Assembly (NCBI RefSeq): GCF_003334385.1
Contig: NZ_QOWN01000017.1
Length of the DNA: 64,000 bases
From: Escherichia coli
GTDB taxonomy: Bacteria > Pseudomonadota > Gammaproteobacteria > Enterobacterales > Enterobacteriaceae
Strand: one strand, 5' to 3'
The position numbers were made by a program. Positions 46,301 through 49,300 of the stretch are shown here, piece by piece; position 1 is the first letter of the stretch; every line of letters begins with the position of its first letter.

Positions 46301-49300
46301 TCGACTTACAACCTTTTAACTGACAGCAGGAGAGGCATAATGAAAACGCTGCTGATTATTGACGCTAATCTCGGTCAGGCACGCGCCTATATGGCGAAGA
46401 CCCTGCTGGGCGCGGCGGCGCGAAAAGCAAAACTGGAAATCATCGACAATCCGAACGACGCTGAAATGGCGATTGTTCTCGGTGATTCCATCCCGAACGA
46501 CAGCGCGCTGAACGGTAAAAATGTCTGGCTGGGCGATATTTCCCGGGCAGTTGCGCACCCTGAGCTGTTCCTGAGTGAAGCCAAAGGCCATGCGAAACCT
46601 TACACTGCGCCGGTCGCTGCGACAGCACCAGTTGCCGCCAGCGGTCCGAAACGCGTAGTTGCGGTGACTGCTTGCCCGACTGGCGTAGCACACACCTTTA
46701 TGGCGGCTGAAGCCATTGAAACCGAAGCGAAAAAACGTGGCTGGTGGGTGAAAGTTGAAACCCGTGGTTCTGTTGGCGCGGGTAATGCAATCACTCCCGA
46801 AGAAGTCGCAGCAGCGGATCTGGTGATTGTGGCGGCAGATATCGAAGTGGATCTGGCGAAATTTGCTGGTAAACCGATGTATCGTACCTCTACCGGTCTG
46901 GCGCTGAAGAAAACCGCGCAGGAACTGGATAAAGCGGTTGCTGAAGCAACGCCGTATGAACCGGCGGGCAAAGCTCAAACGGCGACCACTGAAAGTAAGA
47001 AAGAGAGTGCAGGCGCATACCGTCACTTGCTGACGGGCGTTTCTTACATGCTGCCGATGGTCGTTGCAGGTGGTCTGTGTATCGCGCTTTCTTTTGCTTT
47101 TGGTATCGAAGCGTTTAAAGAGCCGGGTACGTTGGCTGCGGCGCTGATGCAGATTGGTGGTGGTTCAGCCTTTGCGCTGATGGTGCCGGTACTGGCAGGT
47201 TATATTGCCTTTTCCATTGCCGATCGTCCGGGCCTCACTCCGGGTCTGATTGGCGGTATGCTGGCGGTCAGCACCGGTTCTGGCTTCATTGGTGGTATTA
47301 TTGCGGGCTTCCTGGCTGGTTACATTGCGAAGTTAATCAGTACGCAATTGAAACTGCCACAGAGTATGGAGGCGCTGAAACCGATCCTGATCATTCCGCT
47401 AATTTCCAGTCTGGTGGTCGGTCTGGCGATGATCTACCTGATCGGTAAACCAGTTGCTGGCATTCTCGAAGGGCTGACTCACTGGCTGCAGACCATGGGG
47501 ACTGCGAATGCGGTTCTGCTGGGGGCGATCCTCGGTGGCATGATGTGTACTGACATGGGCGGTCCGGTAAACAAAGCAGCGTACGCATTCGGTGTGGGTC
47601 TGCTGAGTACTCAAACCTATGGCCCGATGGCGGCGATTATGGCGGCAGGTATGGTGCCACCGCTGGCAATGGGTCTGGCAACAATGGTGGCGCGTCGCAA
47701 ATTCGACAAAGCGCAGCAGGAAGGTGGCAAAGCCGCTCTGGTATTGGGACTGTGCTTCATTTCGGAAGGTGCAATTCCGTTTGCTGCTCGTGATCCGATG
47801 CGTGTGCTGCCGTGCTGTATCGTGGGTGGGGCGCTGACTGGCGCAATCTCAATGGCGATTGGTGCGAAACTGATGGCACCGCACGGTGGTCTGTTTGTTC
47901 TGCTGATCCCTGGCGCTATTACGCCGGTATTGGGTTACCTGGTAGCAATTATTGCCGGTACGCTGGTGGCGGGTTTGGCCTATGCCTTCCTGAAACGTCC
48001 GGAAGTGGACGCAGTAGCGAAAGCAGCGTAATAAAAGGTGTGTTACAGGGCAGAAATTTCCTGTCCTGTAACATTTGATGAGCGCAAAGAGAATGACCGG
48101 TTTGTGAATGTAATTTTATGAATTTAAATGGTTTTATCTTTCAGTAGAAACTTCAAACGTTCATCAAACACTCAGGTTATTTCCTCAAGGGCAGATTATT
48201 TTCTGCCCTTTTTTATTGTTCTGTTCTGTGCATCCCGTCACAAATTCCTCGCTTTTGTAATTCAGGCATTTAATCGCATTTTGTGAGCCTGCTCAAATCT
48301 GCCCATTTTGCCTCTCTGGCGGTAATTTACTTTACGTAAAACATGCATACTATGAGCACATGTTTAAATATGAACACATGTTTAAACCGTCTTTGCAGTA
48401 TCTATATTCTTGTGGATTGACAGGGTTGGTAATTTTTTACCAGAGGACGTGCTATGCGCGAAAAGGATTATGTCGTAATTATAGGTTCGGCGAATATTGA
48501 TGTCGCCGGATATTCACATGAATCATTAAATTATGCGGATTCAAATCCAGGTAAAATAAAATTTACGCCTGGTGGAGTAGGGCGCAATATTGCACAAAAC
48601 CTGGCGTTGCTGGGTAACAAAGCCTGGCTACTGAGCGCCGTAGGCAGTGATTTTTATGGTCAATCGCTGCTAACGCAAACCAATCAATCTGGCGTTTATG
48701 TCGATAAATGCCTGATTGTGCCGGGAGAAAATACGTCGAGTTATTTATCATTACTCGATAATACCGGTGAAATGCTGGTTGCTATAAATGACATGAATAT
48801 TAGCAACGCTATTACAGCTGAATATCTCGCACAGCACGGTGAATTTATTCAGAGGGCAAAGGTCATTGTCGCGGACTGTAATATCAGTGAAGAGGCACTG
48901 GCATGGATTCTGGATAATGCCGCCAACGTACCCGTATTTGTCGATCCGGTTTCGGCATGGAAATGTGTCAAAGTGCGCGACCGTCTAAATCAGATCCACA
49001 CTCTCAAGCCAAACCGCCTTGAAGCGGAAACCCTGAGTGGGATTGCGCTGTCAGGGCGTGAAGATGTGGCAAAAGTTGCTGCCTGGTTCCATCAACATGG
49101 CCTGAACCGACTGGTATTGAGCATGGGCGGCGACGGCGTTTATTACAGCGATATCAGCGGTGAAAGTGGCTGGTCTGCGCCGATCAAAACCAATGTTATT
49201 AATGTTACCGGAGCGGGCGATGCCATGATGGCGGGACTTGCTTCGTGTTGGGTAGACGGAATGCCGTTTGCCGAATCTGTTCGTTTCGCACAGGGATGTT

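What the first reader, a model, noticed from the sequence alone, without database searches (positions are those of the whole stretch)
48341..48386. Direct repeat (C)ACATGTTTAAA twice, with a third ACATG, upstream of psuK
About 70-100 bp upstream of the psuK start there are two exact copies of CACATGTTTAAA (48357-48368 and 48375-48386), 18 bp apart centre to centre, preceded by a third ACATG at 48341-48345. Each copy contains the short palindrome ACATGT. Directly repeated sites at roughly 1.7 helical turns look like an operator for a dimeric or tandem-binding regulator; the neighbouring Crp/Fnr-type regulator yeiL or the HTH-kinase yeiI are speculative candidates. I do not recognise this as a known motif.
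Basis: seen in the sequence. Interest (0 to 1): 0.3.

Follow-up and report, generated by a model that had tools for sequence, protein, structure and literature searches.

The report
Predicted repressor sites at psuK promoter
The repeated sequence upstream of the E. coli pseudouridine kinase gene is a conserved pair of palindromic protein-binding sites sitting on the gene's promoter, most likely bound by the uncharacterised neighbour YeiI, a DNA-binding protein built from a disabled copy of the same kinase.

Summary
CACATGTTTAAA occurs at 48357-68 and 48375-86. It is part of an 18-bp head-to-tail unit, TATGA[G/A]CACATGTTTAAA x2 (48351-86).

It is not a mere duplication. Each unit holds a palindrome, TGA(G/A)CA-CA-TGTTTA, and two such sites 18 bp apart are conserved in Escherichia, Citrobacter, Buttiauxella and others. 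They follow a conserved weak promoter (-35 TTTACT, -10 TACTAT) with two CRP-like sites upstream.

The known recurrent gut-adaptive SNP 2257444 A>C maps to window 48328. It turns TTTACT into TTGACT, which marks this as the working promoter.

The palindrome AACA-NN-TGTT, usually as a pair 18-19 bp apart, also lies upstream of pseudouridine operons in Yersinia, Serratia, Pasteurella, Orbaceae, Photorhabdus, Aquitalea and Paludibacterium (11 exact hits in 3.6 kb against 5 in 147 kb). In those genomes the first operon gene is an HTH-PfkB kinase homologous to E. coli YeiI. E. coli-type YeiI has lost two catalytic motifs.

Best reading: two operators at about +1 and +19 for a YeiI repressor, with CRP activation. 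YeiL is not supported. No binding or TSS data were available. I found no description of this site or of YeiI as a regulator in the literature and databases I could search. It is a new member of a known kind.

The parts
48227..48242 (+). Distal CRP-like site TGTGCATCCCGTCACA (centre 48234.5, about -126 from the predicted start)
   Evidence: 1 mismatch to TGTGA-N6-TCACA. Two of the three such matches in the 64-kb window lie in this spacer. TGTG...TC(A/T)CA is recognisable at the same place in Escherichia, E. albertii, Citrobacter and Buttiauxella. Predicted only.
48282..48297 (+). Proximal CRP-like site TGTGAGCCTGCTCAAA (centre 48289.5, about -71 from the predicted start: a class I position)
   Evidence: TTGTGA and TCA.AT are invariant in all 12 aligned genomes, and the distance to the -35 is a constant 44 bp. 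Predicted only.
48326..48331 (+). -35 hexamer TTTACT of the psuK promoter. Position 48328 is the site of the recurrent adaptive SNP (T>G on this strand, giving TTGACT).
   Evidence: TTTAC is invariant in 12 genomes. SNP 2257444 A>C (PMC7518454, PMC9509342) was mapped with an offset verified on four srlR coding mutations. With the G allele the consensus scan reports TTGACT-16-TACTAT, 9 of 12.
48348..48353 (+). -10 hexamer TACTAT (16-bp spacer from the -35)
   Evidence: Conserved as TACTAT, TATTAT or TATCAT in most aligned genomes. The wild-type promoter scores 8 of 12, below the scan threshold, as expected for an activator-dependent promoter.
48358..48361 (+). Predicted transcription start (NC_000913.3 2259390-2259393, minus strand)
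   Evidence: Inferred from the -10 position only.
48353..48366 (.). Operator site 1: palindrome TGAGCA-CA-TGTTTA (centre 48359.5), within repeat unit 1 (48351-48368). It overlaps the end of the -10 and the predicted start.
   Evidence: A.CA..TGTT is invariant across 12 genomes. It belongs to the pair table and consensus.
48371..48384 (.). Operator site 2: palindrome TGAACA-CA-TGTTTA (centre 48377.5), within repeat unit 2 (48369-48386), at about +12 to +25.
   Evidence: GAACA..TG.T is invariant across 12 genomes. The 18-bp spacing is constant in all type-B genomes.
48454..49395 (+). psuK (pseudouridine kinase), first gene of psuK-psuG-psuT, the regulated target
   Evidence: NF007355, 713.8 bits.
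54968..56056 (-). yeiI: HTH_24 winged helix (residues 3-47) + PfkB domain (57-347). Predicted cognate repressor and sensor.
   Evidence: Pfam. Synteny. Loss of the NxxE Asn and GAGD>GADD. No experimental evidence.

Best explanation
The repeat is a pair of dyad-symmetric operators (core AACA-NN-TGTT; 18-bp consensus tttaAACA-ta-TGTTtaaa), centred 18 bp apart at about +1 and +19 of the psuK-psuG-psuT promoter. The promoter is weak (-35 TTTACT, 16 bp, -10 TACTAT) and probably depends on cAMP-CRP bound at two upstream sites. The operators are most likely bound by dimers of YeiI, a winged-helix HTH fused to a pseudouridine-kinase-like PfkB domain. Bound YeiI would block RNA polymerase binding, open-complex formation or escape. 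Pseudouridine, or its 5'-phosphate, binding to the kinase-like domain would release it. Shown: the sequence anatomy; its conservation; the statistical association of the motif with psu operons in genomes that encode HTH-PfkB proteins; the degenerate catalytic motifs of YeiI; and the mapping of the adaptive SNP to the -35. Inferred: the transcription start, CRP dependence, YeiI binding, repression rather than activation, and the inducer.
For: (1) Conservation. Alignment of 12 genomes from 5 genera shows invariant columns concentrated in the CRP half-sites, the -35, the -10, both palindromes and the RBS. The 40 nt after site 2 are not conserved. (2) Dyad symmetry. The central dinucleotide flips CA<->TG, or is CG or TA, while AACA/TGTT stay. 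This is expected for a dimer reading both strands, not for a direct repeat. (3) Independent genomes. In 10 loci not used to define the motif, AACANNTGTT occurs 11 times in 3.6 kb of psu upstream DNA against 5 times in 147 kb elsewhere (expected 0.12, Poisson P about 2e-18). 9 of 10 loci have an exact site against 0.18 in 2,000 dinucleotide shuffles. The sites mostly come as pairs 18-19 bp apart, right after a -10-like hexamer. (4) Regulator link. In Yersinia, Serratia, Pasteurella, Orbaceae, Xenorhabdus, Photorhabdus, Aquitalea and Paludibacterium the gene directly downstream of the sites is an HTH_24-PfkB protein that leads an operon with psuG. It is the only regulator-like gene shared by these loci. 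In E. albertii, Citrobacter, Buttiauxella, Affinibrenneria and [E.] lignolyticus, psuKGT is followed by a convergent yeiI. (5) The HTH is more conserved than the kinase domain in nearly all comparisons (e.g. 64-76% against 41-50%), matching a conserved DNA target. (6) Of 45 proteins in the YeiI clade, 39 have KPT..E and GADD in place of the PfkB motifs KPN..E (NxxE) and GAGD. 44 more distant operon-leading HTH-kinases keep both. A psuK mutant cannot use pseudouridine, so YeiI does not replace PsuK (PMC12506659, citing Preumont 2008). (7) The promoter is real. The recurrent adaptive SNP in mouse gut (5 of 7 mice; PMC9509342, PMC7518454), also A>C in long-term stationary phase (PMC7858067), is 48328 T>G, giving TTGACT. 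(8) Within the 64-kb window the psuK promoter holds the only good site pair.
Against: No binding, expression or TSS data for YeiI or this promoter could be obtained; the TSS is predicted. If transcription started at the alternative TTTAAA-16-TATATT promoter, the sites would be at about -38 and -56 and the logic would change. However, that promoter is not conserved outside Escherichia, and an 11-bp natural deletion destroys its spacing in one Escherichia genome. E. coli yeiI is 6.5 kb away, apparently co-transcribed with nfo, and has no such site upstream, so autoregulation as in the type-A operons is not seen. YeiL homologues exist in many Enterobacterales, so a second regulator cannot be excluded. 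Xenorhabdus lacks a clear proximal pair. The test loci are not fully independent phylogenetically. An 18-19 bp spacing puts two dimers on different faces of the helix, which is unusual for cooperative binding.
Confidence: 0.68

Rival explanations
1. The sites are operators for a different transcription factor: YeiL (a Crp/Fnr-family protein encoded next to psuT in E. coli) or some other regulator not encoded in the locus.
For: The 14-bp palindrome TGAACA-NN-TGTTCA has the 5-N4-5 geometry typical of FNR-type sites and resembles the PrfA box TTAACANNTGTTAA (my recollection, not tested). yeiL is adjacent in E. coli. YeiL homologues occur in several Enterobacterales.
Against: yeiL is absent from the psu locus in E. 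albertii, Citrobacter, Buttiauxella, Affinibrenneria, [E.] lignolyticus and all eight type-A loci, although the sites are present. No named YeiL homologue comes from Pasteurellaceae, Orbaceae or betaproteobacteria among the best 120. There is no site in the yeiL-rihB spacer, although YeiL is reported to autoregulate (PMC9308461). The motif tracks the HTH-PfkB gene instead.
Confidence: 0.12
2. The repeat acts at the RNA level. In the psuK 5' leader the two units fold into a hairpin, or form the pairing site of an sRNA such as RprA, that controls translation or stability.
For: The K-12 leader folds with an 11-bp hairpin, 48362-72 with 48377-87 (whole-leader z-score -2.44). psuK is listed as an RprA target in RIL-seq and TRIC-seq (bioRxiv 10.1101/2025.09.11.675593). 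One pair shows A:U<->G:C exchange.
Against: Pairing across genera is 78.8%, against 76.0% in column shuffles. Two similar palindromes are necessarily mutually complementary, so the pairing potential carries no information. The stem is interrupted by mismatches and G-U pairs outside Escherichia. The predicted start lies inside site 1, so the RNA would lack its left half. In type-A operons the sites abut the start codon and the -10. No Rfam family matches.
Confidence: 0.06
3. The A/T-rich repeat is part of promoter architecture. Unit 2 supplies the -35 TTTAAA of a downstream promoter (-10 TATATT at 48403-08), and unit 1 acts as an UP-like element or as an activator site at about -38 and -56.
For: The consensus scan finds TTTAAA-16-TATATT, 9 of 12.
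Against: One such match is what shuffles give (mean 1.2). TATATT and its spacing are not conserved outside Escherichia, and one Escherichia genome has an 11-bp deletion that leaves a 5-bp spacer. The adaptive SNP improves the upstream promoter, not this one. The site centres (30.5 and 48.5 bp from the end of this -10) do not fit class II or class I activator positions.
Confidence: 0.07
4. It is a functionless recent tandem duplication produced by replication slippage.
For: The two units are 17 of 18 identical and exactly head to tail. A natural single-copy variant exists (strain EA7), so slippage does occur.
Against: The two-site architecture predates Escherichia and is kept in genera where the two units are only about 12 of 18 identical. 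The two-copy state is essentially fixed across about 4,200 E. coli genomes. The motif recurs in beta- and gammaproteobacterial psu operons.
Confidence: 0.03

Closest known systems
lac-type dual control: CRP class I activation plus a repressor operator over the transcription start (lacP with LacI O1 at +11)
   Same: A weak -35, a CRP-like site near -71, palindromic operators covering +1 to about +25, and a catabolic operon for a scavenged nutrient. A -35 'up' mutation raises expression, as with lacUV5-type mutations.
   Different: There are two adjacent operators 18 bp apart instead of one main operator with distant auxiliaries. The presumed repressor is not a LacI/GalR protein. Everything here is predicted, not shown.
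Enzyme-derived or enzyme-fused repressors: BirA (biotin ligase/repressor), NadR, ROK-family NagC/Mlc (sugar-kinase fold + winged helix), archaeal RbkR (riboflavin kinase + wHTH)
   Same: An N-terminal winged-helix domain is fused to a small-molecule kinase fold that binds the pathway's own metabolite, and the operators lie in the promoter of the pathway genes. In type-A genomes the same polypeptide is apparently both the pathway kinase and the regulator, as with BirA and RbkR.
   Different: The fold is PfkB (ribokinase-like), for which I know of no characterised transcription factor (my knowledge; nothing found). In Enterobacteriaceae the functions appear to be split between an HTH-less enzyme (PsuK) and a motif-degenerate HTH paralogue (YeiI).
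CytR/DeoR control of nucleoside catabolism genes (deo, udp, cdd, nupG, tsx)
   Same: Nucleoside scavenging genes under CRP activation plus a specific repressor, with tandem CRP-like sites about 55 bp apart, as in deoP2.
   Different: No CytR octamer GTTGCATT (up to 1 mismatch) and no DeoR operator TGTTAGAAWWCTAACA (up to 3 mismatches) occur in the spacer. The operators lie downstream of the -10, not between the CRP sites.
PrfA box / FNR-type 14-bp palindromes (TTAACANNTGTTAA; TTGAT-N4-ATCAA)
   Same: A 14-bp palindrome with a 2-bp unspecified centre. It differs from the PrfA box at one position per half-site.
   Different: This is a resemblance from memory only. The Crp/Fnr-family candidate YeiL does not co-occur with the sites.

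Membership tests
Palindromic repressor operator overlapping a promoter | Dyad symmetry of each site | tested here: met
   TGA(G/A)CA-CA-TGTTTA (0 and 1 mismatch to TGAACAYRTGTTYA). In the symmetrised matrix of 32 sites the AACA/TGTT core is 88-94% conserved.
Palindromic repressor operator overlapping a promoter | Conserved across species more than the flanking non-coding DNA | tested here: met
   the invariant columns cluster in the sites, and the following 40 nt are unconserved; enrichment in independent genomes, P about 2e-18.
Palindromic repressor operator overlapping a promoter | Overlaps the -10 / transcription start | tested here: inconclusive
   The position relative to the conserved -35/-10, and to the adaptive -35 SNP, fits. 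No experimental TSS could be consulted.
Palindromic repressor operator overlapping a promoter | Bound by a specific protein, with derepression on its loss | not testable with these tools
   Needs EMSA or footprinting, and a yeiI deletion.
YeiI-family (HTH_24-PfkB) regulon site | Co-occurrence of the motif with the regulator gene and the psu genes across taxa | tested here: met
   All 16 genomes examined across gamma- and betaproteobacteria encode an HTH-PfkB gene in the psu locus and carry the motif upstream of the psu operon. 15 have a pair 18-19 bp apart; Xenorhabdus has only a single distal site.
YeiI-family (HTH_24-PfkB) regulon site | The regulator has a DNA-binding domain with a conserved recognition region | tested here: met
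   HTH_24, E 6.4e-10, residues 3-47. The segment ISRS.VA.HIM.L is conserved from Escherichia to Aquitalea. The HTH is more conserved than the kinase domain.
YeiI-family (HTH_24-PfkB) regulon site | Motif absent where the regulator is absent (negative control) | not tested
   No psuK-psuG locus from a genome lacking an HTH-PfkB gene was examined.
Crp/Fnr-family (YeiL) site | Co-occurrence with yeiL | tested here: not met
   tblastn finds yeiL only in the three E. coli-clade loci. It is absent from the loci, where the sites are present.
Crp/Fnr-family (YeiL) site | A similar site in the autoregulated yeiL promoter | tested here: not met
   No AACANNTGTT with up to 2 mismatches in 52441-52569.
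CytR operator | Octamer GTTGCATT repeats flanked by CRP sites | tested here: not met
   No match with up to 1 mismatch between 47327 and 50247.
DeoR operator | 16-bp palindrome TGTTAGAAWWCTAACA | tested here: not met
   No match with up to 3 mismatches in the spacer. TGTT-N8-AACA across the two sites shares only the outer tetramers.
PhoP box | Direct repeat (T/G)GTTTA with an 11-bp period | tested here: not met
   TGTTTA recurs with an 18-bp period.
CRP class I activated promoter | TGTGA-N6-TCACA site centred near -61.5, -71.5 or -82.5 | tested here: inconclusive
   A site with 1 mismatch at 48282-97 is conserved. Its centre is at -70.5 or -71.5 if the start is 48360 or 48361. Neither the TSS nor CRP dependence was measured.
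Variable-number tandem repeat | Copy-number polymorphism between strains | tested here: not met
   3,272 genomes are identical and 947 differ by 1-3 substitutions over the two-copy 72-mer. One single-copy strain was found. The single-copy query gave only two-copy genomes among the best rows.

The most novel reading that the evidence does not exclude
HTH_24-PfkB proteins form an undescribed family of transcription factors derived from a nucleoside kinase. In many gamma- and betaproteobacteria one polypeptide would be both the pseudouridine kinase and the autorepressor of its own operon (BirA-like logic). In Enterobacteriaceae a duplication would have split the roles into an HTH-less enzyme (PsuK) and a catalytically degenerate pseudokinase repressor (YeiI), which senses pseudouridine and binds the two operators found here. 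This would give E. coli YeiI a function, define the regulatory logic of RNA-modification salvage, and explain why a -35 up-mutation that overrides tight repression is repeatedly selected in the gut.
Probability: 0.55. Interest if true: 0.62.

Novelty: new member of a known kind. Interest (0 to 1): 0.48.

Why it matters
psuKGT lets E. coli salvage pseudouridine, an abundant breakdown product of host and microbial RNA. Its promoter is one of the most repeatable targets of adaptation in the mouse gut. I found no description of how the operon is regulated, and YeiI is still listed as a protein of unknown function (PMC9061257, PMC12506659; NCBIfam 'sugar kinase').

The analysis yields a concrete, testable model: two operators, a CRP-dependent promoter, a named candidate repressor and a likely inducer. 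It explains the adaptive SNP mechanistically as a -35 up-mutation. It also points to a tidy case of subfunctionalisation of a bifunctional enzyme-regulator. A pseudouridine-responsive repressor and operator pair would also be useful as a biosensor for pseudouridine production strains.

Tried and rejected
- Rfam scan of 47900-48600 at permissive threshold: only one chance-level hit.
- Literature searches for psuK promoter, YeiL, YeiI and pseudouridine repressor found no described regulator or site. The phrase searches 'psuK fruA' and yeiC+fruA+intergenic returned nothing.
- TSS data: the Thomason 2015 dRNA-seq paper is not held. The Footprint-seq CRP preprint does not mention psuK in its main text. 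The qPCR table of PMC9509342 (Supplementary Data 16) was truncated in storage, so the direction of the expression change caused by the SNP could not be read.
- Copy-number census with a single-copy query was ambiguous because BLAST pieces are joined. I relied on the two-copy query and on one outlier I inspected.
- RNA hairpin covariation test: inconclusive.
- YeiL exclusion by phyletic absence failed, because YeiL homologues are widespread in Enterobacterales. It is disfavoured on synteny and site distribution instead.
- A possible distal operator in K-12 (AACATTTGAT at 48070-79, 1 mismatch) overlaps the hairpin after fruA and has no conservation support, so it is not claimed.
- Rejected as a third copy: ACATG at 48341-45.
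- Considered and rejected on spacing or sequence: PhoP, CytR, DeoR/GlpR-like TGTT-N8-AACA, ArgR boxes, MetJ and NrdR. Only CytR and DeoR were tested with searches. PhoP was rejected on the spacing seen in the sequence. The others were compared from memory.
- First pass of the pair table excluded sites near start codons and was redone.
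Full report
**1. What is there**

The window is E. coli K-12 (100% identity to K-12 derivatives). The finding lies in the 422-bp spacer between fruA (ends 48031) and psuK (starts 48454). Downstream come psuG, psuT, a convergent yeiL, then rihB, nupX and yeiI on the minus strand.

- They are the 3' parts of an 18-bp head-to-tail unit, TATGA[G/A]CACATGTTTAAA x2, at 48351-48386.
- This is one of only four tandem arrays of that score in the 64 kb.

**2. It is old, and it is two palindromes rather than a direct repeat**

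I fetched psuK loci from other Escherichia clades, E. albertii, Citrobacter, Buttiauxella and a Raoultella MAG and aligned their upstream regions. The conserved blocks are:

- two CRP-like sites (48227-42 and 48282-97);
- a -35 TTTACT (48326-31);
- a -10 TACTAT (48348-53), at fixed spacing from the -35;
- directly after the -10, two sites 18 bp apart.

Each site reads (T)GA(A/G)CA-YR-TGTT(Y)A. The central dinucleotide flips between CA, TG, CG and TA, while AACA and TGTT stay fixed. K-12's AACACATGTT is AACATGTGTT, its own reverse complement, in Citrobacter. That is the signature of a dimer reading a dyad.

Outside Escherichia the two 18-bp units are only about 12 of 18 identical.

Within E. 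coli the two-copy sequence is essentially fixed: 3,272 genomes are identical over 72 nt and 947 have 1-3 substitutions. One strain, EA7, has lost exactly one unit and also carries an IS5 just upstream of the proximal CRP-like site.

**3. The promoter is real**

Several evolution studies report the same SNP, 2257444 A>C (psuK/fruA intergenic):

- It rose in 5 of 7 mice and was described as lying in the psuK promoter and changing growth (PMC9509342, PMC7518454, PMC10340439).
- An A>C change in 'psuKp' also arose in three long-term stationary-phase populations (PMC7858067).

I mapped the coordinate with a .2-to-.3 offset of 1978 bp. This is the only offset that reproduces all four published srlR amino-acid changes from the same table. 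The SNP is window 48328 T>G, turning TTTACT into TTGACT.

- The wild-type promoter scores 8 of 12 and is missed by the consensus scan.
- In a pigeon isolate that carries the G allele, the scan reports TTGACT-16-TACTAT.
- The allele also occurs in four laboratory K-12 derivatives: ER1821R, ER2683, S17-1 and ST18.

With this promoter, the predicted start is 48358-48361. Site 1 then spans about -7 to +7, site 2 about +12 to +25, and the proximal CRP-like site is centred near -71. That is a classical activator-dependent, operator-blocked layout.

The alternative downstream promoter found by the scan (TTTAAA-16-TATATT) is not conserved. An 11-bp natural deletion breaks it in one Escherichia genome.

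**4. Who binds**

yeiL is present only in the E. coli-clade loci. In E. albertii, Citrobacter, Buttiauxella and the Raoultella MAG, psuT is followed directly by a convergent orthologue of yeiI, 76-82% identical.

YeiI is an HTH_24 winged helix (residues 3-47) fused to a PfkB kinase domain. PsuK is its closest paralogue (about 40% identity). The literature lists YeiI as being of unknown function, although it keeps the two pseudouridine-specificity residues (PMC9061257; also PMC12506659).

I retrieved YeiI homologues and their contexts.

- **Type A** (Yersinia, Serratia, Pasteurella, Orbaceae, Xenorhabdus, Photorhabdus, and the betaproteobacteria Aquitalea and Paludibacterium): the HTH-PfkB gene is the first gene of an operon with psuG, and usually with a nucleoside transporter.
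- **Type B** (Affinibrenneria and [Enterobacter] lignolyticus): the E. coli arrangement, with a separate psuK and a convergent yeiI.

In these ten loci, none of which was used to define the motif:

- AACANNTGTT occurs 11 times in 3.6 kb of psu upstream DNA, against 5 times in the other 147 kb (expected 0.12; P about 2e-18).
- 9 of 10 loci have an exact site, against 0.18 in dinucleotide shuffles.
- The sites mostly come as pairs 18-19 bp apart, just after a -10-like hexamer. In type-A operons they lie about 27 and 9 bp before the start codon.
- In Yersinia and Serratia the annotated start is probably 9 codons too early and lies inside the operator.

The symmetrised consensus of 32 sites is tttaAACA-ta-TGTTtaaa.

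**5. YeiI looks like a sensor, not an enzyme**

- PsuK and the type-A HTH-kinases keep the PfkB catalytic motifs KPN..E (NxxE) and GAGD.
- In the YeiI clade, 39 of 45 proteins have KPT..E and GADD, and the rest carry other non-canonical variants.
- 44 more distant members are canonical, and 4 more have the near-canonical GCGD or GSGD.
- In nearly every comparison the HTH is more conserved than the kinase domain.

This fits a duplication in which PsuK lost the HTH and YeiI lost catalysis. It agrees with the report that a psuK mutant cannot use pseudouridine (PMC12506659).

**6. Rivals**

- **YeiL.** Disfavoured by synteny and by the lack of a site in its own promoter region. It cannot be excluded by phyletic absence, because homologues are widespread in Enterobacterales.
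- **RNA-level function.** Possible in principle: there is a K-12 hairpin, and psuK is an RprA target. But the pairing is no better conserved than column composition predicts, and it is an unavoidable by-product of two similar palindromes.
- **CytR, DeoR, PhoP.** The motifs are absent or mis-spaced.
- **Functionless duplication.** Refuted by the conservation.

**7. Comparison and novelty**

Functionally this resembles lac-type dual control (CRP plus an operator over the start) and the enzyme-derived repressors (BirA, NadR, ROK proteins, RbkR). I found no description of the site, of a regulator of psuKGT, or of any HTH-PfkB transcription factor in:

- the searchable literature;
- NCBIfam;
- the PDB.

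I cannot rule out an entry in regulon databases that I could not query. It is a new member of a known kind (a repressor and operator pair). The more novel reading is that a kinase-derived family of regulators has been subfunctionalised.

**8. Limits**

- No experimental TSS, binding or expression data were available.
- The inducer, the sign of regulation and CRP dependence are inferences from position and homology.
- The test genomes share ancestry, so the P value overstates independence.
- A negative control (psu loci without an HTH-PfkB gene) was not run.

Noticed in passing
window 48328: The recurrent adaptive SNP of gut and long-term stationary-phase evolution experiments (2257444 A>C, psuK/fruA intergenic) is a -35 up-mutation, TTTACT>TTGACT. 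Among 5,426 complete genomes the same allele occurs in four laboratory K-12 derivatives (ER1821R, ER2683, S17-1, ST18) and one pigeon isolate (fEC.1).
   Followed up: yes
L029 1380-1615 (E. coli EA7), equivalent to window 48270-48460: A natural variant that has lost exactly one 18-bp unit (a single operator) and carries an IS5 inserted just upstream of the proximal CRP-like site. It may be a derepressed or rewired psuK promoter.
   Followed up: partly
window 48426-48443: A stem-loop, TTGGTAA-TTTT-TTACCAG, lies directly 5' of the psuK Shine-Dalgarno sequence. It is conserved across genera with an apparent compensatory change (GGTAA/TTACC in Escherichia, GGCAA/TTGCC in Citrobacter and Buttiauxella). 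It could modulate translation or be the site contacted by RprA.
   Followed up: no
psuK mRNA (window about 48358-48460): psuK is listed among targets of the sRNA RprA common to RIL-seq and TRIC-seq (bioRxiv 10.1101/2025.09.11.675593). The pairing site was not located.
   Followed up: no
window 48040-48075 and 48187-48215: Two hairpins follow fruA: an imperfect palindrome right after the stop codon, and a canonical terminator 150 bp further on (GGGCAGA...TCTGCCC + T-run). In [E.] lignolyticus and Buttiauxella the terminator follows fruA directly, so E. coli has about 110-150 bp of extra sequence here. Some RefSeq genomes annotate a 48-aa hypothetical ORF on the opposite strand (L005 393-539).
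   Followed up: no
L019 6754, L020 about 6750, L023 about 6721, L028 about 6730: Yersinia, Serratia, Xenorhabdus and Photorhabdus carry an extended palindrome, ACCAAACA-NN-TGTTTGGT, in their psu upstream regions. In the first two and in Photorhabdus it lies about 242-250 bp upstream of the proximal operator pair; Xenorhabdus lacks a clear proximal pair. All four also have conserved CTTACGATC and CTTTACTG boxes. This may be an auxiliary operator for DNA looping.
   Followed up: partly
L019 7001-7027 and L020 7001-7027: The annotated start codons of the Yersinia and Serratia HTH-PfkB genes are probably 9 codons too far upstream. The extra MFKNKQVS(I/N) is encoded by the operator pair itself.
   Followed up: partly
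E. coli species level: About 1,200 of 5,426 complete E. coli genomes have no match to psuK or its promoter region, so the pseudouridine operon is accessory within the species. I did not examine which lineages lack it or whether yeiI is lost with it.
   Followed up: no
window 54968-56056 (yeiI) and 56059-56916 (nfo): yeiI starts 2 bp after the nfo stop codon on the same strand, and the same junction is seen in [E.] lignolyticus. The putative regulator therefore seems to be co-transcribed with endonuclease IV. No operator-like site lies upstream.
   Followed up: partly
window 3771-4549: A large tandem array: 113-bp period, 6.9 copies, 96% matches. By its sequence it looks like a REP/BIME-type array.
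   Followed up: no
window 32736-32745: An isolated exact AACACATGTT lies inside a 364-aa ORF on the minus strand (32477-33571), without a proper partner site. It is probably chance: 7.6 matches with up to 1 mismatch are expected in the window.
   Followed up: partly
window 49391-49430: A 21-bp tandem repeat, x1.9, 89% matches, lies at the psuK/psuG overlap.
   Followed up: no
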